DNA from: a virus
Virus record (IMG/VR): IMGVR_UViG_3300045988_043817
Span: 1-36,063 of that record
DNA length: 36,063 nt
Direction: 5' to 3' (one strand)
Shown here: positions 1-36,063 of the stretch, piece by piece
Layout: every line of letters begins with the position of its first letter
How positions within the stretch are numbered: position 1 is the first letter of the stretch
Program-made: the position numbers and the translations under genes
The notes under the pieces: model-generated
The model's input: the letters and a program-made list of their open reading frames with translations, nothing else
Told to the model about the DNA's origin: nothing
Databases searched by the model: none

Positions 1-119
1 ATTTTTTTGAACCGTTCCCTCTTCTTCCAGTGATCCGGCCAAGAAGTCAGCGCGTTGTTGTTCGGTGCGGTCTTCATAGTCGGCTGGGAAAAGCTTATCT
101 ACGTAGTTTTCTATAATAC
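1..119. repeat. Terminal direct repeat copy 1 (identical to 35945-36063); overlap of a circularly closed contig
   Basis: 119/119 nt identical at both window ends. The repeat lies inside an ORF that stays in frame across the junction. Confidence 0.95.
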
Positions 120-2184
120 CTACTAGCGGGCTTTCTTCTGTAAATTCCTCGCGGCCTTCGTTGGCGATCGCTTCGGCTTCGTCAGACAAAACAAGGCTTT
201 CACCCAACATGTACAGCTCCATTGCTTCCGCCCAAAGTTGGTCTACCACCGCCTCAAAAGACTTTTCAAACAGCTTGTGTGTGTTTTTGTTGGCGCATAC
301 CTCGATCGGAAAGAAACGGCGGTTTCCGGTCTTGTCCTTCAAAAACTCATCGTCATTGGTAGACCCGAAGAACACACATTGACGCCTGTGTGTCTTGACG
401 CGGCGGGCGTATGCGCTACGATATGTATCTTCCCGCTTGCTGATAAAGTTCTTTGTGGCTTCCACGTCCGAGCGGCGAAGGGCTGATAACTCGGCTAGCT
501 CTACGATCCAAGCGTGCTGTATCGCTTCGTATGCTTTTTGCCCGGATATGTCGGTTAATGAATCATTAAACCAACCTTTTGAAAGGGACTGTATAAGCGT
601 GGACTTTCCTGCGCCCTGTCCTGAATACATAACCAAAGCCGTATCGAATTTGCGGCCCGGCTCATAAACTCTAGTAACAGCGGCAACCATCATTTTACGG
701 AACGCCTCGGAAACGTATATACTAGGCTTCGCACCCATGTAGTCAACCAAAAAATTATCAATACGTTTCACGCCGTCCCATCTTTGTGCCTCTAGATACT
801 TCTTGATAGGGTGAAAAGCGTTTTCGCTGCAAACCTTTTCCAGCGCGTCGTTTAATTTGCTGTCGTTGTAAATACCATGCAAATCCTCTATACGTCCACG
901 GATAATCGCTACGGCAGTATCGTCCAGCATATCACCCTTCTTGATGTCCTTCGAGAAGAACGGCGTACGGGTGTACACGATCGTGTCTAGGAACAAGTCG
1001 TATGCTAACAGATCGTTTAATAGTGGATCACACTTGAAAGCATTAACGAAGTTGCGAACGGTACACAATTTATCACCTTTGCGATCCAAGTCCCAAACCA
1101 GTTCCTCGGCGGTCTGCGCGTCGCTCTTAACATCGTCCGGGTATTCTTCGAAGTCGGCTAGATCATCGTCCACGGCTACCATATCTTTAACACACTCTTT
1201 ATCGGCGCAAATTAGCTTGTTCATCTCTCGAGTACTGTCTTCCTTACCCAGATGTCCGAACTTGTGCACCCGTACAAGGTCATAGGCATTATAAGCGTGC
1301 CCGTCTCCGATCGGATCGGTTGAGTGGTGAGAAAAACAAAGTACATCGTCATACACTACCAAGCCCGCCGCGCCTGATCCAAGGGCATAGGTATAACGTC
1401 CGTTGTCTACTTCCGTGTAAACGTCTGATAGATATTTTTCTATGGCTTCCGGTATGGTGTACGAGCGACAAAACGCGCCTATCAAACCCTCTTTGTCGCG
1501 CGGGTCTTTCGCCATCTCCTTACTAATCAGCGCTCGGGTGTCGCGTTCTACGTCTGAATGGAACGCCCAGTTGCGCACGTCTCGCCATTCTTCATTGTCT
1601 CCGTACAAGCCAATAAGATACTTGGCGTCTATCGGCTCGCCTTCGAACACTTCGAAAAATCCGGTTTGATCTTTTGAAAGGGATTGCCAGTACATCATAC
1701 GTTCCGGTTGGAATGTTGTTTTATCGAACAAGTCGATCCCTAACAACTCGGCTACTTTCCGCGCCGCCGCCTCGTACATAACCACGTCGGTAACCTCTTC
1801 TTTGAAAGGCATGATAAGACGGTAACGGCGCGATCCCGGTCTATCCGAACGCGTTGTATATATAACCGCCGCGTATCCGTGAAAACGATCCTCGAAATCA
1901 ATCGGGAAAAGATCATCGGCAAAGTCAATATCTAGCGTTATCATTGTACGAGACATAACTGCCTTTTTCAGGCGTTGCGATCCTGAAAGCTCGCCGGCCA
2001 TGAATCCGCCTACGTCTTTCAAAGACGATTTGGCGGGCTTATCCAGTTTATCGTACTCGCGTACCGTTTCGTTAGTGATAACGGGCGTACCTAAACGTTT
2101 TACAAAATCGTCCCATGTGAGGCGCACCGCCTTCCATTTCAGAGACGCTGAAGAACCTGCAAGTGATAAGGTGTATTTTTCCAT
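1..2184 (-). CDS. DNA primase/helicase, VirE-like (AEP primase-like N-terminus plus P-loop NTPase). These are the first 728 codons; the gene continues across the circular junction to a stop at 35738 (797 aa total).
   Basis: ATG at 2184-2182 (MEKYTLSLAGSS...). The frame is open to the window edge, since the track lists no minus ORF fragments here. LDIDF acidic motif; Walker A GQGAGKS at about 601-621. The frame of 2184 matches ORF 35738-35986 once the 119-nt overlap is removed. Confidence 0.85.
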   Translation of the reverse strand, partial: MEKYTLSLAGSSASLKWKAVRLTWDDFVKRLGTPVITNETVREYDKLDKPAKSSLKDVGGFMAGELSGSQRLKKAVMSRTMITLDIDFADDLFPIDFEDRFHGYAAVIYTTRSDRPGSRRYRLIMPFKEEVTDVVMYEAAARKVAELLGIDLFDKTTFQPERMMYWQSLSKDQTGFFEVFEGEPIDAKYLIGLYGDNEEWRDVRNWAFHSDVERDTRALISKEMAKDPRDKEGLIGAFCRSYTIPEAIEKYLSDVYTEVDNGRYTYALGSGAAGLVVYDDVLCFSHHSTDPIGDGHAYNAYDLVRVHKFGHLGKEDSTREMNKLICADKECVKDMVAVDDDLADFEEYPDDVKSDAQTAEELVWDLDRKGDKLCTVRNFVNAFKCDPLLNDLLAYDLFLDTIVYTRTPFFSKDIKKGDMLDDTAVAIIRGRIEDLHGIYNDSKLNDALEKVCSENAFHPIKKYLEAQRWDGVKRIDNFLVDYMGAKPSIYVSEAFRKMMVAAVTRVYEPGRKFDTALVMYSGQGAGKSTLIQSLSKGWFNDSLTDISGQKAYEAIQHAWIVELAELSALRRSDVEATKNFISKREDTYRSAYARRVKTHRRQCVFFGSTNDDEFLKDKTGNRRFFPIEVCANKNTHKLFEKSFEAVVDQLWAEAMELYMLGESLVLSDEAEAIANEGREEFTEESPLVGIIENYVDKLFPADYEDRTEQQRADFLAGSLEEEGTVQKN

Positions 2185-6147: not shown

Positions 6148-6713
6148 TACAGACGAGTTGAGATGTATTCGATGAACTCCGCGAACATGCTCTCTTTAAG
6201 TGTCGGGAAAGACGTTGCGCCTACCTGTTCGAATGCTTCTTGCACTAAGGGGCGTTTCTTTGCGTTTAGAGCCTTCATTGCCCATTGCTTACACTCTTCC
6301 ACTGTGTGCTCCGTTTCGTCCTTGGCGGGCTTCTCTACTGGTGCAGCGGGTGCTTTCGGGGCGGGTGCTTCCACTTCTTTAGCTTCTTCCACTGGTGCAG
6401 GTTCTTCCACTGGTGCAGGTTCTTCCGCTGGTGCGGGCTTCGCGGTACGCTTAGCACGTGCCTTCGCGCGCTCTGCTTCCATCAATAACGGCAAGCACAC
6501 TTCTTCACCCTTCGCCTTTGTTGCTTCTACAACCGCGTCCGCCAACTTGTCAAGATCTGTTTTTGCGTTCGCGGTTGCTTCGTCGTTCGGTCCATAAACT
6601 TTGGCTTCCGTTGATACGGGAAGACTTCCCTCTGCCAGCTCGCGCAAATAGTTAGACGTCGCCAACAAATCCTGTTTACTCTCGTTTCCTAATAATTCAA
6701 TTACTACTTTCAT
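6147..6713 (-). CDS. Hypothetical early protein with acidic Pro/Glu-rich repeat linker (188 aa)
   Basis: ATG overlaps the upstream stop as ATGA. PAPAEEPAPVEEPAPVEE is encoded by an 18-bp tandem repeat. TAATG junction with the next gene. Confidence 0.7.
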   Translation of the reverse strand: MKVVIELLGNESKQDLLATSNYLRELAEGSLPVSTEAKVYGPNDEATANAKTDLDKLADAVVEATKAKGEEVCLPLLMEAERAKARAKRTAKPAPAEEPAPVEEPAPVEEAKEVEAPAPKAPAAPVEKPAKDETEHTVEECKQWAMKALNAKKRPLVQEAFEQVGATSFPTLKESMFAEFIEYISTRL

Positions 6714-6889: not shown

Positions 6890-7203
6890 TGCATCTTTTT
6901 ATTGAATTTAAAACTAAGTTCATTAGAGCCTCTAAAGGTTTTAACGTGATCGGAAAAAGCGGCTTTCCGGGCTTGTTCGAAAATGCTTTCGTACCGTTTG
7001 GCATGTGGAATAATAAAACCTCGGATTTTATACTTAAACTTTTTTCCGGCTTCTTCTTCTCGTTGCAAATCTTTGTAGACCATTCCCGACACACCCGGAT
7101 AACCGTATATGTTCGTGACCTCTCCGATCGTTTCGCACGCTTTAATCCTCTCCGTTATCACTTTGTAAAAGAACGCTTCTAACTTGTAAATGTCTACTGC
7201 CAT
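6871..7203 (-). CDS. Hypothetical protein, first gene of the early operon (110 aa)
   Basis: ATG-initiated ORF about 90 nt downstream of a consensus promoter. Confidence 0.65.
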   Translation of the reverse strand: MAVDIYKLEAFFYKVITERIKACETIGEVTNIYGYPGVSGMVYKDLQREEEAGKKFKYKIRGFIIPHAKRYESIFEQARKAAFSDHVKTFRGSNELSFKFNKKMQWKKSS

Positions 7204-7292
7204 ATCTAGTAATGTTTAAAACGATTCTCCGGTATCGGAATAGTTCAACAAATTTAGTAGGCTTTTCAGTTGTTTTATCGCTTTCGATGTTA

Positions 7293-7322
7293 CAAAGGTA
7301 ATGCTTTATTTTGGACTACAAA
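7293..7322 (-). promoter_or_regulatory. Bacteroidota-type promoter (TTTG-N18-TACCTTTG) for the early/replication operon
   Basis: Minus strand: -33 TTTG at 7322-7319 and -7 TACCTTTG at 7300-7293. About 75% identical over about 62 nt to the promoter at 35582-35645. Confidence 0.55.
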
Positions 7323-7383
7323 ACTATTTCCCAAAAAACTTTAGTAATTTAACTCTGATTAACGGTTTTGAAGGTTTGATAAC

Positions 7384-7698
7384 GGTGTAAAAGACAAATA
7401 GTCCTTTTTAAGTGGATCTTTACACCCTTAACTAATTGCGTATCAGTTGTTTATGTGGCAAAAACAGGTGAAGTGCATAAGATATAGGATAGTTTTCTAT
7501 AAAGTTTAAAATAAAATATTTCCATAAATTCATTCACATATTAATTCATATATTTACATATTTTATAGATTATATTACTTTTCCGTTTTTATCTCTATAT
7601 AACATCTTTACATCTTTTACAAATGGTATATATTGATAGATAAAGTACTAGTTATTAGGGAGTTAAGTGTAAAAGATACAAATTTTAATCTTTTACAT
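7384..7698. repeat. Non-coding module copy A (diverged duplicate of 27291-27594) carrying GTGTAAAAGAT-type motifs
   Basis: Identical blocks: 7425-7445, 7604-7624 and 7639-7650. Block 7661-7698 matches copy B at 35/38. Perfect 10-bp inverted repeat at 7668-7677 / 7688-7697. Confidence 0.85.
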
Positions 7699-7782
7699 GC
7701 AAAAAAGCCAACTCGTTAAGAATCAGCGTTTTAAGTTTTTAAGTGCAAAAGATGGAAGGGCATTTATAAAAGACGAAAAGCA

Positions 7783-8370
7783 TTATTTGTCGAATTCTGC
7801 CGAGAATTCTACATGTATTTTAGATTTTGGGTTTTTATTCGATACGGTTATCGTTTGTTTCGGTTTTCCGATCCGAAAGAATAAAAACCGCTTTTGTTTT
7901 ACTGATCCGATCACGTCGATCGTGTCGGTACTGCTAGATTTTATAATCGTGGTGTCCGGTTTAGACTCAACTTGTATATCATTCCACCCGTCGAAGTAGT
8001 GCGCAAACCTGTTTTCCCCGTTCCCGTCCCGGTATTCTGTCTTAACCACGGTGTCCACCTTGGTAACTGTCTCGGCCCTTGTAGCGTTCTTAAGCTCCCG
8101 TATCTTTATCCCCGCCTCGCGTACCTTATTATATAGATCGGCGTTATATAGTTCTAGCTCGTCCTTCTCTAGCTTTAACTGCCTAGCCTGTTCCGCATAA
8201 TCACCCGCCGTAGTCTTGAACGCTACGGCCTCGGAGTTAAGCGCGGTGATGTTGTTTTCCTGCCTTTCTAGCTCTTTATGCTGCCTTTTTATTGTCTTGT
8301 ATGCTGTGAACAATAAAATAGCAAGAAGGACAAGCAAACACAATAAAATCTTAGCTAATGTTATCTTCAT
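7783..8370 (-). CDS. Spanin-like lysis accessory protein (N-terminal TM plus coiled coil, 195 aa)
   Basis: N-terminal hydrophobic segment ILLCLLVLLAILLF, a long heptad-like region, and an ATGA overlap with the endolysin stop. Confidence 0.45.
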   Translation of the reverse strand: MKITLAKILLCLLVLLAILLFTAYKTIKRQHKELERQENNITALNSEAVAFKTTAGDYAEQARQLKLEKDELELYNADLYNKVREAGIKIRELKNATRAETVTKVDTVVKTEYRDGNGENRFAHYFDGWNDIQVESKPDTTIIKSSSTDTIDVIGSVKQKRFLFFRIGKPKQTITVSNKNPKSKIHVEFSAEFDK

Positions 8371-10801: not shown

Positions 10802-11347
10802 TTACTCTTCGAACTCCTTAAGACCCTCCGCGGCTTCGGCTTCCGCTGCTGCCTTGTTTGCTGCACGTGTGGCTGCTGCCTTTTTAGCCGCTTCACTGCG
10901 TTTAGCTGCTGCGATCTCTTCTTCTGTCAGCTCCGGTTCTTCTGTCAGCTCCGGTTCTTCTGCCGGGGCTTCCGGTTCACCTTCTACGGGCGCTTCCGGT
11001 TCCGTTTCTGGTTCCGGATCACCTTCTACAGGTGCTTCCGGTTCTGGTTCTGGTTCCGGTTCTGCTTGCAAGTCTATAAAATAGTCCTTGTAATTCTCGT
11101 TCGATTCCATGAACTCCACGGCCTTCTCGTCGCTTGTGTTAAATGCGCGGTACACTCTTCCGTCTTCAATCGAGTTGATGAACAACCCCGGCTTCATAAC
11201 GTAGCGGGTGTGCTGTCCTGTCAAGTAACGTTCATCATACCAGCGTTGCGCAAACAGGCGATCCGCCCCGCATGTAATATCCAATTTTAGGTTAGTCATT
11301 GTTTGACACAATGAAACTATTTGCCCTATATCTGTAATTTTTTCCAT
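10802..11347 (-). CDS. Hypothetical structural protein with acidic PE-rich repeats and Ala/Lys-rich C-terminus (181 aa)
   Basis: EPEPEPEPEAPVEGDPEPETEPEAPVEGEPEAPAEEPELTEEPELTEEE is encoded by nested tandem repeats at 10919-11065. Confidence 0.65.
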   Translation of the reverse strand: MEKITDIGQIVSLCQTMTNLKLDITCGADRLFAQRWYDERYLTGQHTRYVMKPGLFINSIEDGRVYRAFNTSDEKAVEFMESNENYKDYFIDLQAEPEPEPEPEAPVEGDPEPETEPEAPVEGEPEAPAEEPELTEEPELTEEEIAAAKRSEAAKKAAATRAANKAAAEAEAAEGLKEFEE

Positions 11348-19353: not shown

Positions 19354-21216
19354 TTATCCCTCCTGTGTAATTAAACAAATTGCGATCTCGTGCGTAGTCA
19401 TATTCTCAATTCGAAGTTGACCTGTCCGCGCTGCTCCGGGGTTCGCCGTATCATATTTAATCGCTATGGCAGTTTGTTTGGCCCTTCCTGATGTAGGTGT
19501 AACGGATACCCAGCTAGGCGCGCTACCCATAATCCAGTTATTTTCAGACGTCGCTACCACGAAAACAATTCGGTCCCCCCCGGCTTTAGGTCCTGTCACC
19601 CCTATTGGCAATATTTTTATCGAAGTTGGCGCGCCCGTTTGGTTAACCGTAACTACCGTTATTTCCTCGGTTTGGCCATTATAAAACGTTATCGTCCCAG
19701 TTCTAGCGGTGTTACCCATGTTATTCGCGATCGTTAACGTTACAGCGGTTATTCCACCAACCCCTGTTGTAACGCTCGGAGTGATCCACGAATCCTTTTG
19801 AGAAACAGACCATGCGCCAACCGATGTAACGTCTACGGTTACCGGGTGTGTTAGATAGTCTACATCAAACATTGAGGTGTCTACCGATATATTGCCCGAA
19901 ATCCCGGCCTGCATAACGACTATACTGTACGTAGTAGAGCCCACCTTGCTTTTCAACACAATGTTACCCGTTCTAGCCTCGCCATCGTTGGCGGTTACCG
20001 TGATAACCAAGGGTGTAGTTCCCTTGTTCCCCGTGGGACTATCCGCTGACACCCATGTCGGCGTGCTCTGCACCTCCCATGCCGCGTTGCTGTATATGCT
20101 GTTAGTAATTCCTTCCGCATACGCCGCGCCGATCGTCCACGGGTTTTTCTGCGCGCTAAATGCGATCGACGGTGTGGGCGGTTGATCCGGTGCTAGCGGG
20201 AAGATGTAATTATCTTGTAGCTCGGTGGTCTTGAATCTTACTCGCTGTCTGTACGTCTTGGTACTGTTAGACCACCGCGCCCCCGTGTCGCCTACGACCT
20301 CGGCTCTAAAATGTTTCGATTGGTATTGATTTATACCCGGTATGTTCAAGTCAAACACTACGTTTGAAGAAACTAACAGCTCTTGGTAGACGTTATACCA
20401 TTCTTCACCGTACTCTAGATTTATAGTTAGCTCCGCTTGTTCTGTTACGCCTCCGCGGCCTCGGATAGGGGTGAACTTGTTAGACCAAAAATAGTCCTTG
20501 AACGCGTCCCAAAACCACTGCCCATTGCGCATGTTCCATCTAGCCCTTAGAGCGCATTGCAGGCCCTCATCGTAAACAGCTTCGGACATTAACCGATCTT
20601 CATAGTTAATTACTTGATCCAGCCCGTTACCCCAAACGTTCTTAATAGTCAACTTCTTAATATACGTTATGTCGATAGTGTCCCCCAGTACGTAGGTAGC
20701 GGGAAACATAACATTACTAGGCGCGCCCGTCACAGGTTCAATCTGAACGGATAACGCGTCAGACGGGTGTATAACGTATGGGAAGAATATGTCTAGCGTT
20801 TGTCCCGGTATGCGCGGTTTGATCGGTTGGGGAAGCGCGCTATCAACGCCTAAAGTATCCCAGTATGTAAGATCACAGTGGAATACGGGAATAGTTATAT
20901 AGTCCGTCGGGTCTGAAACCCAAAACAATAGCTCTTGCTGCATAAACCACGGTGTACCCTGCGACTTGTTACGATCCGCGCGCTTAAGCAAAGGGGCGGC
21001 AAAAGATAGGTCTATGTCCGTCCCGTACTGCTGATAAGGCAAAGTTACCGTTTTAACCGGCGATCCGCTGTTCCTCACAGTAATATTCACGGGCTCGTTT
21101 GGGCCCGTTGTCACCTTCACCATTAGCGGGCGTGTAGCCCACACGGGTAACTGCCTGTCATAGGTTTGGCCGTCGGTTAGTGTTACATCTGCTATCGGTA
21201 TATATATGTTCATCAT
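19354..21216 (-). CDS. Tail protein with three C-terminal BACON-like Ig domains (620 aa)
   Basis: Three repeats of about 60 aa with the pattern W-x-(V/I)-x4-10-W(V/I)(S/T)...ARTG(N/T/Q)(I/L)...Q(A/T/E)G, at residues about 378-620. Confidence 0.7.
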   Translation of the reverse strand: MMNIYIPIADVTLTDGQTYDRQLPVWATRPLMVKVTTGPNEPVNITVRNSGSPVKTVTLPYQQYGTDIDLSFAAPLLKRADRNKSQGTPWFMQQELLFWVSDPTDYITIPVFHCDLTYWDTLGVDSALPQPIKPRIPGQTLDIFFPYVIHPSDALSVQIEPVTGAPSNVMFPATYVLGDTIDITYIKKLTIKNVWGNGLDQVINYEDRLMSEAVYDEGLQCALRARWNMRNGQWFWDAFKDYFWSNKFTPIRGRGGVTEQAELTINLEYGEEWYNVYQELLVSSNVVFDLNIPGINQYQSKHFRAEVVGDTGARWSNSTKTYRQRVRFKTTELQDNYIFPLAPDQPPTPSIAFSAQKNPWTIGAAYAEGITNSIYSNAAWEVQSTPTWVSADSPTGNKGTTPLVITVTANDGEARTGNIVLKSKVGSTTYSIVVMQAGISGNISVDTSMFDVDYLTHPVTVDVTSVGAWSVSQKDSWITPSVTTGVGGITAVTLTIANNMGNTARTGTITFYNGQTEEITVVTVNQTGAPTSIKILPIGVTGPKAGGDRIVFVVATSENNWIMGSAPSWVSVTPTSGRAKQTAIAIKYDTANPGAARTGQLRIENMTTHEIAICLITQEG

Positions 21217-26452: not shown

Positions 26453-27159
26453 TTCTTATCCTCCTCACCCTTGTGTTCCTTCTTGAAATCTTTCAGTTTC
26501 CCCATCCTTGCAGACACTTTCGGATCGGTAACGTTGACGGTCAAGCCGCCCTTGATGGCTTCGCCGTTAGACGTGTAGTCCATTTGCATCTTGATCCCGC
26601 GTAGCGCCCTGATGTACTGCGCATCGAACTGTCCGACGCTCGCACCCTGATCCATGTCCGCCGCGATCTCGGCGCGTATGCGGTCTATCGTCTCGACGAA
26701 CTCCTCACATACCGACAAACCGAACTCCTCGAAATTCTTCATATAAGTGTTGCGGCGTTCGTGCAAGTACTTCACCCCAGCCCCTAGGAACGCCGTAAAC
26801 TCGCTCTCGCTCTGTAAGTGCTTCTTCGGCACTTCGTAGAGCGTCCCGGCCGCCGGGCCGGACTTTATTGCCTCGTACACTATAACGGGTGTAGCCTCGC
26901 ACCAAGCCGTGTAAATGGCGTACGCCTCCCATAGCTCGGCGGGGTCTTGCCAGACGGGCGTTTTACCGAACCGGCGCGTAGCCAGTTGGTAGCACCGGGT
27001 GCACTCGAACGAATCGGAGAGGTATTGCGTAGACGCGTACGTCGGCCGGATCGCCCCACCACCACACACCGCTTTAATCCTCTCCTCCGGTACAGGCTTC
27101 TCCTTTGGAGGCTCCACAGGCTTCGTAGTTTCTATAATTTCTTTCTTCTTTGTAGCCAT
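26449..27159 (-). CDS. terS: Terminase small subunit (gp3-packaging-like, 236 aa)
   Basis: DPAELWEAYAIYTAWCEATP...FTAFLGAG resembles the terS N-terminal DNA-binding domain. It lies directly upstream of terL. ATG at 27159; the track start at 27186 is TTG inside the -7 box. Confidence 0.65.
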   Translation of the reverse strand: MATKKKEIIETTKPVEPPKEKPVPEERIKAVCGGGAIRPTYASTQYLSDSFECTRCYQLATRRFGKTPVWQDPAELWEAYAIYTAWCEATPVIVYEAIKSGPAAGTLYEVPKKHLQSESEFTAFLGAGVKYLHERRNTYMKNFEEFGLSVCEEFVETIDRIRAEIAADMDQGASVGQFDAQYIRALRGIKMQMDYTSNGEAIKGGLTVNVTDPKVSARMGKLKDFKKEHKGEEDKK

Positions 27160-27183: not shown

Positions 27184-27211
27184 CAAAAGTAGTCATTTTG
27201 CCCGTCTCAAA
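27184..27211 (-). promoter_or_regulatory. Candidate late promoter (-7 TACTTTTG, sub-optimal 16-nt spacer to TTTG)
   Basis: -7 box at 27191-27184, 25 nt upstream of ATG 27159. TTTG at 27211-27208. Confidence 0.35.
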
Positions 27212-27290: not shown

Positions 27291-27594
27291 AGTGTAAAAC
27301 ATAGAATTATACCATCTTTACGCCCTTAACTAATTGCGTATCAAAGAGTTACAAGCGAAAATCGCCAAATGTAAATGATAAAACATAGTTTCTCTATTAG
27401 TTCTAAAATAAAAAAATGACGAAATAAATTATTTAAAATAACAATAGTATATTTATGTTAACTATATATTCTTCTTTTAATAGTTACTAACTAGTATCTA
27501 TCTTTACATCTTTTACAAATACACTATATTATATGATAAAGTACTATAAATAAGCAAGTTAGGTGTGAAAGATACAAATTTTAACCTTTTACAT
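27291..27594. repeat. Non-coding module copy B (diverged duplicate of 7384-7698)
   Basis: Blocks 27323-27343, 27500-27520 and 27535-27546 are identical to copy A. Block 27557-27594 matches at 35/38. Block spacing is 186 bp here and 188 bp in copy A. Confidence 0.85.
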
Positions 27595-27784
27595 CAAAAA
27601 CTTGAAAAGCGCGTTCTACGTCCTGTGAGAGTGGTAGGGTGTAAAACATGAAATGGCAATGTAAAAGAAGGTTTTGGCTACTTTTTTGTCAAAAACACGC
27701 TTTTTAGTTAAAATACCGTTAAAATCAAGCATTCTCTCTAAAAAGTTTTTTCTCACAAAGTTTTTGTAGAAGTGCATCAAAAGC

Positions 27785-27838
27785 GTGTTAACGATTTTAA
27801 CACAAAAAGGGGTTAACGTTTTTATACATTAACCCCCT
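27785..27838 (-). terminator. Tandem rho-independent terminators ending the early block
   Basis: Minus-strand RNA GGGGUUAA-N12-UUAACCCC-UUUUUGUG (27838-27804), then GUGUUAA-AAUCG-UUAACAC-GCUUUUG (27803-27785). Confidence 0.7.
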
Positions 27839-27844
27839 CAATCC

Positions 27845-35557: not shown

Positions 35558-35581
35558 ATCTTTAATTGGTTATTGTGAAAG

Positions 35582-35612
35582 CAAAGGTACGTCTTTATTT
35601 TGAACTACCAAA
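35582..35612 (-). promoter_or_regulatory. Bacteroidota-type promoter (TTTG-N19-TACCTTTG)
   Basis: -7 box at 35589-35582 and -33 at 35612-35609. Homologous to the promoter at 7293-7322. Confidence 0.6.
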
Positions 35613-35648
35613 TGTTTTCGGAAAAAACTTTGAAATATTAACAAAAAT

Positions 35649-35680
35649 AAAGGCTCGCGTATCACTACGAAAGCCTTTTT
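35649..35680 (-). terminator. Hairpin terminator after the primase/helicase gene
   Basis: AAAGGCT-N16-AGCCTTT flanked by A and T runs. The minus-strand RNA ends in AUUUUUG. Confidence 0.5.
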
Positions 35681-35737
35681 AACTGAAAAACCACCCTAAA
35701 AGTATTAACCTTAAAAATTAGAAAAGAAAGTTTTGTA

Positions 35738-36063
35738 TCACAAAGATAGTAATTTTTTGCTTTCCTCGCTACCTTTACGGATATAAACTACTTGTTGACC
35801 ATATAATTTTGTTCTTTTTAACTTTCCTTTGTACCATCCGCCTAACTGTCTCATAGCTGTTGCCAGTTCGCGCCCCTTCGCGCTTGTATAATCTTCTTTC
35901 CGGCGTCCCAGTGCATCGACCCAAAGCTCCATCAAACAGAACGTATTTTTTTGAACCGTTCCCTCTTCTTCCAGTGATCCGGCCAAGAAGTCAGCGCGTT
36001 GTTGTTCGGTGCGGTCTTCATAGTCGGCTGGGAAAAGCTTATCTACGTAGTTTTCTATAATAC
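35738..36063 (-). CDS. C-terminal part of the primase/helicase gene that starts at 2184. 35738-35944 is unique; 35945-36063 duplicates 1-119.
   Basis: Same frame as 1-2184 after circularisation. The track ORF 35738-35986 starts at an internal TTG only because the window ends there. Confidence 0.85.
   Translation of the reverse strand, partial: IIENYVDKLFPADYEDRTEQQRADFLAGSLEEEGTVQKNTFCLMELWVDALGRRKEDYTSAKGRELATAMRQLGGWYKGKLKRTKLYGQQVVYIRKGSEESKKLLSL
35945..36063. repeat. Terminal direct repeat copy 2 (identical to 1-119)
   Basis: Direct comparison of the two window ends. Confidence 0.95.

What the first reader, a model, noticed from the sequence alone, without database searches (positions are those of the whole stretch)
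7384..7698. Twin non-coding module, copy A: identical short blocks with conserved spacing, upstream of the early operon
7384-7698 is a diverged duplicate of 27291-27594, 19.9 kb away. Several blocks are identical or nearly so. CCCTTAACTAATTGCGTATCA matches 21/21 (7425-7445 = 27323-27343). ATCTTTACATCTTTTACAAAT matches 21/21 (7604-7624 = 27500-27520). GATAAAGTACTA matches 12/12. A 38-nt block matches 35/38 (7661-7698 vs 27557-27594). The stretch of about 150 bp between the blocks is very A+T-rich (roughly 75-80% by eye) and has drifted, yet block-to-block distance is kept at 188 vs 186 bp. No ORF is shared by the two copies. The copies occupy the only two large intergenic regions of the genome. 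Each lies between the end of one transcription block and the promoter of the next. Conserved blocks and spacing around a drifting AT-rich core fit three models: protein-binding arrays flanking an unwinding element (origin), paired operator regions that communicate by looping, or a structured ncRNA. I know of no described element of this architecture, and it is the strongest unexplained signal in the window.
Basis: seen in the sequence. Interest (0 to 1): 0.85.

Follow-up and report, generated by a model that had tools for sequence, protein, structure and literature searches.

The report
Twin replication origins of a gut phage
The two look-alike non-coding stretches are most likely a pair of DNA replication start sites, each an array of short binding sites around an easily melted A+T-rich core, which the phage's own primase-helicase appears to recognise; the kind is known, but the paired and family-wide arrangement is new for this group of gut Bacteroides phages.

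Summary
7384-7698 and 27291-27594 are true paralogues: 123 bits against at most 33 in 200 dinucleotide shuffles.

The window is a roughly 36 kb Bacteroides siphophage. All its genes lie on the minus strand, in two operons. Each module sits between the terminator of one operon and the host-type promoter of the next.

Each module carries 7-9 copies of an 8-9 bp iteron, GTAAA(A)GAT, in both orientations. The iterons surround the two least stable duplex segments of the genome (about 16% G+C).

The same twin layout occurs in B. caccae, B. uniformis and Phocaeicola phages. The iteron differs between lineages but is the same, or nearly so, in both copies of a genome.

Iteron type co-varies with wing residues of the C-terminal winged-helix-like domain of the phage primase-helicase (p = 3e-6 for copy A, 2e-4 for copy B). 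Neighbouring proteins show no such link. That protein is a homologue of the SaPI Rep self-loading helicases, whose origins are iterons flanking an A+T-rich region.

Best reading: twin origin-type helicase-loading sites, as with SPP1 oriL/oriR. No conserved RNA structure was found. The "drifting" cores are in fact strongly conserved among orthologues.

This is a new variant of a known kind, supported by computation only.

The parts
7384..7760 (-). Module A: iteron array plus A+T-rich core, between the terminator of the late operon and the promoter of the early (replication) operon.
27291..27670 (-). Module B: paralogous iteron array plus A+T-rich core, between the terminator of the early operon and the promoter of the packaging/structural operon.
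7669..7696 (.). Copy A inverted iteron pair: the 28-bp near-palindrome GTAAAAGAT-TAAAATTTGT-ATCTTTTAC.
7604..7620 (-). Copy A tandem iterons GTAAAAGAT GTAAAGAT, abutting the A+T-rich core. The type of this site co-varies with the helicase wing residue.
7490..7603 (.). Copy A A+T-rich core, the candidate unwinding element. G+C is 15.8%. It holds the second least stable 60-bp duplex window of the genome. Positions 7521-7560 are 96-99% conserved across 29 phages.
7387..7423 (.). Copy A far-side iterons in opposite orientations: 7416-7423 on the minus strand and 7387-7395 on the plus strand. A degenerate copy lies near 7472-7480.
7745..7753 (+). Copy A outlying iteron GCAAAAGAT (one mismatch), upstream of the terminator.
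27565..27592 (.). Copy B inverted iteron pair GTAAAAGGT-N10-ATCTTTCAC.
27500..27516 (-). Copy B tandem iterons GTAAAAGAT GTAAAGAT.
27380..27499 (.). Copy B A+T-rich core. G+C is 16.7%. It holds the least stable 60-bp duplex window of the genome.
27294..27379 (.). Copy B far-side iterons: 27294-27302 (+), 27314-27321 (-) and 27371-27379 (+).
27641..27669 (+). Copy B outlying iterons: 27641-27649 and 27661-27669.
7707..7727 (-). Terminator-like hairpin with a T-run, ending the late (lysis) operon just upstream of module A's palindrome.
27806..27839 (-). Strong intrinsic terminator (14-bp stem plus T-run) ending the early operon, upstream of module B.
7293..7322 (-). Bacteroidetes sigma-A-type promoter (TTTG-N18-TACCTTTG) of the early operon, downstream of module A.
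   Evidence: The consensus is from my own knowledge (Bayley et al. 2000).
27184..27211 (-). Sigma-A-type promoter (TTTG-N16-TACTTTTG) of the packaging operon, downstream of module B. The terS start is probably the ATG at 27159.
1..2184 (-). Primase-helicase gene, N-terminal and central part. The whole protein is 796 aa and the gene wraps around the circular assembly. It has a primase-like N-terminus and a VapE-like SF3 helicase domain at residues 464-682.
35741..36031 (-). Last 97 codons of the primase-helicase, a winged-helix-like C-terminal domain. Its wing residues (Q in TKLYG-Q-QV; K in KL-K-R) co-vary with iteron type.

Best explanation
Both modules are origin-type loading sites for the phage's own 796-aa primase-helicase.

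Proposed mechanism:
1. The protein's C-terminal winged-helix domain recognises the 8-9 bp iterons GTAAA(A)GAT.
2. The iterons sit in opposite orientations on both sides of a 110-120 bp core that is about 84% A+T.
3. Protein bound on the two sides assembles into hexamers, melts the core and loads itself.
4. The N-terminal primase primes, and the phage PolA extends.

What is shown:
- the anatomy of the modules;
- the extreme instability of the cores;
- family-wide conservation of the layout while the iteron sequence changes;
- co-variation of iteron type with the helicase wing residues;
- homology of the helicase to SaPI Rep.

What is inferred: binding, melting and firing.

Why there are two copies is not resolved. 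Both may fire. Alternatively one may be an auxiliary site bound by the same protein. Examples of that are SPP1 oriR, proposed to stall the fork and trigger the theta-to-concatemer switch, and P4 crr.
For: **Anatomy**
- 16 of 30 iteron matches (at most one mismatch) fall in the two intergenic regions, which are 3.4% of the genome.
- The exact GTAAARGAT pattern occurs 6 times against 0.8 expected.
- The iterons form an inverted pair, a tandem pair and far-side copies around each core.
- The cores are the two least stable 60-bp windows of the genome: -57.1 and -58.8 kcal/mol, against a mean of -82.9 with sd 6.6.

**Position**
- Each module lies between a terminator and the next sigma-A-type promoter.

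**Conservation**
- All 19 related isolates have at least two matching places.
- Twin modules at the same two positions, but with unrelated sequence and different iterons, occur in three further phages.
- B. caccae phage BC679P5: 92-93% identity over about 305 nt; iteron GTCATAGAT.
- B. uniformis phage BU3-1: 83% over 229 nt; iteron GCACAGAT.
- Phocaeicola phage BV674P5: 76% over 275 nt; iteron TGTTCC.

**Cognate protein, group 1 (26 contigs)**
- The tandem type GTCAAAGATGGAAAGAT versus GTAAAAGATGTAAAGAT tracks R versus A/Q/V at one wing position.
- Fisher p = 3.2e-6, the best of 184 variable helicase columns; the next best is 2e-3.
- Seven neighbouring proteins and the DNA flanking the helicase gene give p of 4e-3 or worse.
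- Copy B follows the same rule: 6/0/0/9, p = 2e-4.

**Cognate protein, other lineages**
- The R-with-GTC rule recurs in B. caccae-type phages: BC679P5 has R with GTCATAGAT, and 7 contigs have P with GTAATAGAT.
- In 22 B. uniformis-type contigs, a hypervariable tripeptide in the same domain partitions with iteron type: NGK, DAK/EAK, GRR and KAK.

**Homology**
- Residues 386-711 match 7PDS (SaPI1 Rep bound to DNA) at E = 1.8e-73.
- Pfam assigns a VapE-like domain; the N-terminus matches primase PHROGs.
- The AF2 model of the C-terminal domain has winged-helix topology (pLDDT 69).
- Its Foldseek hits are dominated by winged-helix domains. They include the C-terminal domain of 7pds_F, at probability 0.89.

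**Literature**
- SaPI Reps are self-loading helicases. Their C-terminal winged helix binds 6-12 short iterons flanking a central A+T-rich region, with at least two per side in opposite directions (PMC9371898).
- SPP1 has two similarly organised origins about 13 kb apart, bound by one protein (PMC6316719).
Against: - There is no experimental evidence. All support is correlation and homology.
- The Foldseek matches for the C-terminal domain are weak: no E at or below 1e-3, and TM about 0.46. The model has only moderate confidence. A profile search of PDB sequences found nothing significant.
- In SaPIs the origin lies immediately downstream of rep. Here no iterons follow the helicase gene, and the modules are several kb or more away.
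- The iterons here are 8-9 bp, not 5-6.
- GC skew gives no origin signal, because all genes are on one strand.
- The cores are conserved in sequence, and differ between A and B. A generic unwinding element does not explain that.
- One group-1 contig is an exception: L057 has R with the A-type tandem.
- Binding by the helicase could serve regulation rather than initiation.
Confidence: 0.7

Rival explanations
1. The modules are upstream operator arrays. A sequence-specific phage protein bound at the iterons represses or activates the early and late promoters next to them, possibly by looping between the two copies.
For: - Each module lies just upstream of an operon promoter.
- The 28-bp near-palindrome looks like a dimer operator.
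- Both copies keep the same site type, which fits co-regulation.
- Rep-type initiators of iteron plasmids commonly autoregulate through their own sites (my own knowledge).
Against: - In one search's scan (at most one mismatch), the nearest iterons are 65 nt (A) and 83 nt (B) upstream of the -33 boxes and do not overlap the promoters.
- The HTH_17 protein and the 110-aa protein encoded next to module A do not co-vary with iteron type; their best p values are 0.13 and 0.03.
- The protein that does co-vary is a primase-helicase.
- An operator model does not need the genome's two least stable segments.
Confidence: 0.12
2. The modules encode a structured non-coding RNA or leader element. An example would be a put/nut-like antitermination RNA at the head of each long operon.
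For: - Twin elements at the heads of two long operons recall HK022 putL/putR and lambda nutL/nutR (my own knowledge).
- The inverted iterons can be drawn as hairpins.
- A few arm-to-arm compensations occur in B. uniformis phages.
Against: - RNAalifold on 46 distinct core sequences finds no consensus helix on either strand: -1.8 and -0.8 kcal/mol.
- Folding z-scores are -1.35 and +0.39 on the coding strand, and -1.75 and -2.45 on the other.
- The central pair of the palindrome is T.T in 30 of 46 sequences, and another pair is A.C in 10.
- Rfam gives no hit.
- Each module lies downstream of a terminator and upstream of the promoter.
- The tandem direct copies change in step with the inverted copies, which a hairpin does not require.
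Confidence: 0.03
3. The modules are packaging (pac) or recombination sites, or a duplicated mobile or selfish repeat with no role in replication.
For: - Copy B lies just upstream of the small terminase gene, where pac sites are often found.
- Exchange between the copies is evident: the 21-nt block, and 92% identity between the two copies in BC679P5.
Against: - Copy A is far from the terminase genes.
- Both copies are kept at the same two positions across four divergent lineages.
- The site type tracks the helicase, not terS or any neighbouring gene tested.
- There are no transposase or integrase genes and no target-site features nearby.
Confidence: 0.04

Closest known systems
SaPI replication origins with Rep / PriRep self-loading SF3 helicases (Staphylococcus pathogenicity islands; PDB 7PDS, 7OLA; PMC9371898)
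   Same: - The initiator is a homologous VapE-like SF3 helicase (E = 1.8e-73). As in SaPI5 PriRep, it is fused to a primase.
- It has a C-terminal winged-helix-like domain.
- The origin consists of multiple short iterons on both sides of a central A+T-rich region, in opposite orientations.
- Iteron sequence is specific to the element and matched to the initiator's C-terminal domain.
   Different: - The iterons are 8-9 bp rather than 5-6.
- There is an extra 28-bp inverted pair.
- The site is not adjacent to the initiator gene but several kb or more away.
- There are two copies per genome, at the heads of the two operons.
- The host is Bacteroidota, and the element is a virulent-type siphophage rather than a satellite.
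Bacillus phage SPP1 oriL / oriR (PMC6316719)
   Same: - Two origins of similar organisation (repeats plus an A+T-rich unwinding element) lie kilobases apart on the circular map.
- One protein binds both.
- One of them occupies one of the longest intergenic regions, in the late gene region.
- A+T-rich islands mark both.
   Different: - The SPP1 initiator gp38 works with a separate loader (gp39) and a DnaB-type helicase (gp40), not a self-loading SF3 primase-helicase.
- oriL lies inside gene 38.
- Here both copies are intergenic and placed symmetrically, each between a terminator and a promoter.
Satellite phage P4 ori / crr with the alpha primase-helicase (my own knowledge: Ziegelin, Lanka, Calendar and colleagues, 1990s; PDB 1KA8)
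   Same: - A single polypeptide of roughly 780-800 aa combines primase, SF3-type helicase and a C-terminal origin-binding domain.
- The same short iteron occurs in two separate cis regions several kb apart.
   Different: - In P4 both regions are required, and crr is an enhancer-like element rather than a second origin.
- Homology of the C-terminal domain to P4 alpha was not shown here.
- No paper on this system was available in the held library.
Iteron origins of theta plasmids and lambdoid phages (Rep or O protein, iterons and an A+T-rich element)
   Same: Sequence-specific initiator sites lie next to an A+T-rich unwinding element, and the sites co-evolve with the initiator.
   Different: - Those initiators recruit a host DnaB helicase.
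- Their iterons are 17-22 bp direct repeats.
- They have a single origin, usually within or beside the initiator gene.

Membership tests
Iteron origin served by a SaPI-Rep-like self-loading SF3 helicase | The element encodes an initiator homologous to SaPI Rep (VapE-like SF3 helicase). | tested here: met
   phmmer against the PDB: 7pds_A, E = 1.8e-73, residues 386-711. Pfam PF05272, E = 1.2e-75. The N-terminus matches primase PHROGs.
Iteron origin served by a SaPI-Rep-like self-loading SF3 helicase | The initiator has a C-terminal winged-helix DNA-binding domain. | tested here: inconclusive
   The AF2 model of the last 97 aa has a strand-helix-helix-helix-strand-wing-strand topology (mean pLDDT 69; 80-87 in the core). 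Foldseek hits are dominated by winged-helix domains, including 7pds_F (probability 0.89, TM 0.46), but none has E at or below 1e-3. A sequence-profile search of the PDB found nothing.
Iteron origin served by a SaPI-Rep-like self-loading SF3 helicase | Several short iterons lie on both sides of a central A+T-rich region, with at least two per side in opposite directions. | tested here: met
   The scan gave 7 sites in A and 9 in B, in both orientations, around cores of 15.8% and 16.7% G+C. Some relatives carry inverted tandem arrays on the far side of copy B's core.
Iteron origin served by a SaPI-Rep-like self-loading SF3 helicase | Iteron sequence is matched to the initiator's C-terminal domain. 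| tested here: met
   Co-variation only. p = 3.2e-6 for copy A and 2e-4 for copy B. The rule recurs in a second lineage, and a hypervariable tripeptide tracks the iteron in a third. Controls are negative.
Iteron origin served by a SaPI-Rep-like self-loading SF3 helicase | The origin lies immediately downstream of the initiator gene. | tested here: not met
   No iteron match lies in 35558-35737, downstream of the helicase stop codon. The modules are several kb or more away.
Iteron origin served by a SaPI-Rep-like self-loading SF3 helicase | Specific binding, ATP-independent melting and origin activity. | not testable with these tools
   This needs EMSA or footprinting, KMnO4 probing, marker-frequency analysis or an origin-cloning assay.
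SPP1-type dual origins (oriL/oriR) | Two similarly organised elements (repeats plus an A+T-rich core) lie kilobases apart on the circular genome. | tested here: met
   The modules are 19.9 kb apart one way round the 35.9 kb circle and 16.0 kb the other.
SPP1-type dual origins (oriL/oriR) | The same origin-binding protein recognises both. | tested here: inconclusive
   Both copies carry the same iteron type, and both co-vary with the same helicase residue. No binding data exist.
SPP1-type dual origins (oriL/oriR) | The initiator is gp38-like, with a separate loader and a DnaB-type helicase. | not tested
   No gp38, gp39 or gp40 homologue was searched for. The initiator candidate here belongs to a different family.
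Structured non-coding RNA | A conserved secondary structure supported by covariation. | tested here: not met
   RNAalifold gives -1.8 and -0.8 kcal/mol with no helix. Pair counts show frequent mismatches. z-scores range from -2.45 to +0.39. Rfam finds nothing.
Structured non-coding RNA | The element lies within a transcription unit. | tested here: not met
   By sequence prediction only, each module lies after a terminator-like hairpin and before the sigma-A-type promoter. No RNA data exist.
Operator region of a phage repressor or activator | The sites overlap or abut the core promoter, and a linked HTH regulator co-varies with them. | tested here: not met
   The nearest scanned iterons are 65 and 83 nt upstream of the -33 boxes. 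HTH_17 and the 110-aa protein show no association.

The most novel reading that the evidence does not exclude
The pair may be an obligate two-site replication system that is a hallmark of this whole family of gut phages. In this reading, an origin sits at the head of each of the two co-oriented operons. Replication then runs in the same direction as transcription. Alternatively, the second site may switch replication mode or couple late transcription to replication. Either way, the two copies would be kept in step by gene conversion. A simple wing-residue-to-iteron-base recognition code (Arg with GTC, non-Arg with GTA) would allow lineages to change replicon specificity.
Probability: 0.2. Interest if true: 0.7.

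Novelty: new variant of a known kind. Interest (0 to 1): 0.5.

Why it matters
These 33-38 kb siphophages, proposed as "Bacteroiduroviridae" (PMC12694917), are among the gut Bacteroidaceae phages most readily isolated from sewage. The papers describing them that I could read say nothing about how they replicate.

If the reading is right, it provides:
- candidate origins and a candidate initiator for the whole family;
- a natural series of matched iteron and wing-residue variants, which could be used to dissect how self-loading SF3 helicases read DNA;
- a second, independent example, after SPP1, of a phage that keeps two similar origins, which makes the purpose of a second origin testable;
- cis elements for building phage-derived replicons or engineered phages for Bacteroides.

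Tried and rejected
- **Rfam** at gathering thresholds, and a tRNA/tmRNA scan: nothing found.
- **Small ORFs.** The +strand ORF 7697-7999 has no conserved start codon among relatives. A 35-codon ORF in the A core is broken by a stop codon in most relatives.
- **Promoter inside the shared core.** TTTTTG-N12-TAAAATTTG does not fit the TTTG/TAnnTTTG spacing and is not kept in B. caccae or B. uniformis phages. The TTTTTG is better read as the T-run of the terminator.
- **Invertible segment between inverted iterons.** No relative shows the opposite orientation.
- **HTH_17 (59 aa) and the 110-aa first early protein as the binding protein.** Neither co-varies with iteron type.
- **Genes flanking module A in B. 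uniformis-type contigs.** No outlier tracks the iteron.
- **GC and AT skew.** Monotonic, because all genes are on one strand, so uninformative.
- **Sequence-profile search of the C-terminal domain against the PDB.** No significant hit.
- **First AF2 model from a shallow alignment.** pLDDT 54, so it was not used for fold search.
- **The 179-aa last early protein as a possible late regulator.** No family hit; not pursued.
- **Literature.** No paper in the held library describes origins for these phages, or P4 crr.
Full report
**1. The observation**

The two stretches are real paralogues.
- blastn aligns 7416-7698 with 27314-27594 at 71% over 291 nt, E = 2e-28.
- The best local score between the two intergenic regions is 123 bits. 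Two hundred dinucleotide-preserving shuffles give 21.5 +/- 2.6, maximum 32.8.
- The modules are 23-24% G+C in a 46.8% G+C genome.
- They lie in the two largest gaps between genes, and no ORF is shared.

**2. Genomic setting**

The window is a complete circular assembly: positions 1-119 repeat at 35945-36063. It is a siphophage about 85% identical to Bacteroides ovatus phages such as BK687P3 and BO1. It belongs to the proposed "Bacteroiduroviridae" (PMC12694917).

All genes are on the minus strand, in two blocks.
- The early block begins at 7203 and wraps around the end of the window. It holds a 110-aa protein, an HTH_17 protein, an exonuclease, an SSB-like protein, PolA, a 796-aa primase-helicase, methyltransferases and a second helicase.
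- The late block begins at terS (about 27159) and runs down to 7783. It holds terS, terL, the structural genes, the portal gene, a holin, an endolysin and a spanin-like DUF6549 protein.

On the coding strand, each module is preceded by a terminator-like hairpin: 7727-7707 for A and 27839-27806 for B. Each is followed by a match to the Bacteroidetes sigma-A promoter consensus TTTG-N15-21-TAnnTTTG, at 7293-7322 and 27184-27211. That consensus has six matches in the window against 0.96 expected, and four of them are intergenic on the coding strand. So each module occupies the space between the end of one operon and the promoter of the next.

**3. Anatomy**

Both modules are built from one short motif, GTAAAAGAT or GTAAAGAT.
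- The exact pattern occurs 6 times against 0.8 expected.
- With at most one mismatch, 16 of 30 genome-wide matches fall in the two intergenic regions, which make up 3.4% of the genome.

Read on the coding strand, each module has this order:
1. one or two outlying sites;
2. an inverted pair forming a 28-bp near-palindrome (7696-7669; 27592-27565);
3. about 48 nt of spacer;
4. a tandem direct pair (7620-7604; 27516-27500);
5. a 110-120 bp core of about 16% G+C;
6. further sites in both orientations (7423-7387; 27379-27294).

The two cores are the least stable 60-bp duplex windows of the whole genome. Their values are -57.1 and -58.8 kcal/mol, against a mean of -82.9 with sd 6.6.

**4. Comparative evidence**

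All 19 related isolates match the copy-A query in at least two places. I aligned 13 A copies and 12 B copies from isolates and IMG/VR contigs.

First, only about 100 nt is shared by all A and all B copies: the palindrome, the spacer and the tandem pair. The 21-nt block CCCTTAACTAATTGCGTATCA is present in copy B only in the window's sub-lineage. That points to recent exchange between the copies.

Second, the A+T-rich cores are not drifting. Each is conserved among orthologues. In copy A, 7521-7560 is 96-99% identical across 29 phages. Copy B has its own conserved core.

More telling, the twin layout persists where nucleotide similarity to the window has gone. In each case the pair sits at the same two positions, upstream of the early operon and upstream of terS:

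| Phage | Identity between its two copies | Iteron |
|---|---|---|
| B. caccae phage BC679P5 | 92-93% over about 305 nt | GTCATAGAT |
| B. uniformis phage BU3-1 | 83% over 229 nt | GCACAGAT |
| Phocaeicola phage BV674P5 | 76% over 275 nt | TGTTCC / GGAACA |

Metagenomic relatives add further iterons: GTAATAGAT, TACACAGA and GACCAGAT.

The layout is constant. The short motif changes by lineage and is the same, or nearly so, in both copies of each genome checked. Two exceptions were seen: BU3-1 copy B has two variant sites, and contig 012637 has mixed types. This pattern is the signature of binding sites that co-evolve with a phage-encoded specificity protein.

**5. Which protein**

The proteins encoded next to module A do not track the motif. 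The 796-aa primase-helicase does.

*Group 1 (26 contigs with both loci).* Tandem type GTCAAAGATGGAAAGAT versus GTAAAAGATGTAAAGAT goes with Arg versus Ala/Gln/Val at one position, TKLYG-X-QV.
- The contingency table is 9/1/0/16, Fisher p = 3.2e-6.
- This is the best of 184 variable columns in the helicase; the next best is 2e-3.
- Seven control proteins and the DNA flanking the helicase gene give p of 4e-3 or worse.
- Copy B obeys the same rule: 6/0/0/9, p = 2e-4.

*B. caccae-type phages.* The rule recurs independently. BC679P5 has Arg with GTCATAGAT. Seven contigs have Pro with GTAATAGAT.

*B. uniformis-type phages (22 paired contigs).* A hypervariable tripeptide about ten residues upstream in the same domain partitions with iteron type: NGK, DAK/EAK, GRR and KAK/KAR.
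- Only two of 812 columns separate the TTACACAG phages from the rest, and both lie in this loop.
- Nine of the 15 residues unique to the single GACCAG phage lie in the last 92 residues.

The modules are several kb or more from the helicase gene, and the neighbouring sequence shows no association. Linkage alone is therefore an unlikely explanation.

**6. What the protein is**

- Residues 464-682 are a VapE-like SF3 helicase domain.
- Residues 386-711 match 7PDS, the SaPI1 Rep-DNA complex, at E = 1.8e-73.
- The N-terminal 360 residues match primase PHROGs.
- An AF2 model of the last 97 residues (pLDDT 69; 80-87 in the core) has winged-helix topology, with the co-varying residues at the two ends of the wing.
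- Foldseek returns mainly winged-helix domains, and the C-terminal domain of 7pds_F ranks fourth (probability 0.89, TM 0.46). No hit reaches E = 1e-3, so the fold assignment is only moderately supported.

According to PMC9371898, SaPI Reps are self-loading helicases that also act as initiators. Their C-terminal winged helix recognises short iterons. Six to twelve iterons surround a central A+T-rich region, with at least two on each side in opposite directions. In SaPI5 the primase and Rep are fused. This matches the anatomy found here.

**7. Rivals**

*RNA.* This model fails on four counts.
- RNAalifold on 46 distinct cores finds no consensus helix on either strand.
- Folding z-scores are unremarkable.
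- The palindrome's central pair is T.T in 30 of 46 sequences.
- The modules lie outside the predicted transcription units.

*Operators.* A role as transcriptional operators cannot be excluded as a secondary effect. But the scanned sites do not overlap the promoters, and the adjacent HTH protein does not co-vary.

*Packaging or recombination.* These do not explain copy A or the link to the helicase.

**8. Mechanism and its limits**

The most likely mechanism is as follows.
1. The primase-helicase binds the iterons through its C-terminal domain.
2. It assembles on both sides of the A+T-rich core, melts it and loads itself.
3. It primes, and PolA extends.

The shown parts are the anatomy, the conservation, the co-variation and the homology. 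Binding, melting and initiation are inferred.

Why there are two copies is open. SPP1 is the closest precedent. It has two similarly built origins about 13 kb apart, bound by one protein. oriR lies in a long late-region intergenic gap and is proposed to stall the fork and trigger the switch to concatemer synthesis (PMC6316719). P4 ori/crr is another precedent, from my own knowledge.

Two features remain unexplained. One is the sequence-level conservation of each core, which differs between A and B. The other is the pair of ATAGAGA(A/T)A boxes that bound the cores.

**9. Verdict**

The element belongs functionally with iteron origins of self-loading SF3 helicases. One defining feature of the SaPI type, adjacency to the rep gene, is not met, so I call it a new variant of a known kind. 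The duplication and the family-wide conservation are its distinctive traits. Nothing was found in the held literature about origins in these phages. Interest is moderate.

Noticed in passing
window 7320-7353 (-), 35582-35642 (-), 27742-27785; L022 36208-36460: A second repeated motif, about AAAGTTTTTT(C/G)NNNNAAA (equivalently GAGAGAAAAGTTTTTT). It sits just upstream of the -33 box of the early promoter and of a third promoter at 35582-35612. Two copies lie upstream of module B. In B. caccae-type phages it forms arrays of about 7 copies in both orientations upstream of module B. It may be a transcription-factor site or an UP-like element.
   Followed up: partly
window 7521-7560 and about 27425-27470: The A+T-rich cores are conserved in sequence, not just in composition. 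Copy A, ATATGTAAATATATGAATTAATATGTGAATGAATTTAT, contains three ATATG repeats spaced 10 nt apart and is 96-99% identical across 29 phages. Copy B has a different conserved core, ATATAGTTAACATAAATATACTATTGTTATTTTAAATAATT. A generic unwinding element does not explain this.
   Followed up: partly
window 7585-7600 and 7490-7503; 27395-27410; L022 module: Boxes resembling ATAGAGA(A/T)A bound the A+T-rich core on both sides, for example TATATAGAGATAAAAA and (C)TAATAGAGAAAC. They are shared by the B. ovatus-type and B. caccae-type modules even though the iterons differ.
   Followed up: no
window 7204-7285, against relatives L001, L002, L006, L016, L018, L020, L021 and L022: Downstream of the early promoter, relatives carry one of two unrelated leader segments. 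One is the window's type. The other is a G+C-richer segment of about 150 nt (…CGCCAATCGTAACCAAAGGG…GGTATCCC…GGTGCGGTATCCGC…), which is also present in B. caccae phage BC679P5. This may be a mosaic cassette, a small gene or a structured leader.
   Followed up: no
L104 (BU3-1) copy B, 19622-19840: In this copy, one inverted iteron and the first tandem iteron carry the same variant (ATCTGAGT / ACTCAGAT), while the other sites keep GCACAG. Similar pairwise matches occur in L077 and L081. These may reflect template switching or conversion between sites.
   Followed up: partly
window 1-119 = 35945-36063: An exact 119-nt terminal duplication shows that the window is a circularly closed assembly. The primase-helicase gene (2184->1, then 35944->35738) spans the junction, so the ORF lister does not report it.
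   Followed up: yes
L073 (IMGVR_UViG_3300045988_051890), downstream of the DUF6549 gene: The public contig ends inside module A, in Illumina adapter sequence (AGATCGGAAGAGCACACGTCTGAACTCCAGTCAC…) followed by poly-A. This is an assembly artefact in the database record.
   Followed up: no
window 6368-6442 and 10957-11053: In-frame tandem repeats of 18 nt and of 24/42 nt lie inside coding regions: the 188-aa early protein and the 181-aa ORF at 10802-11347. They produce short peptide repeats.
   Followed up: no
L281 7583-7737 and L280 1796-1951 (IMG/VR contigs 057648 and 027647): In these relatives, copy B has a second array of three tandem iterons on the far side of the A+T-rich core, in inverted orientation. 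This gives a fully symmetric layout with both arrays pointing at the core.
   Followed up: partly
window 27159 against 27186: The mechanical terS ORF starts at a TTG at 27186, inside the predicted -7 promoter box. The ATG at 27159 is the more plausible start codon.
   Followed up: no
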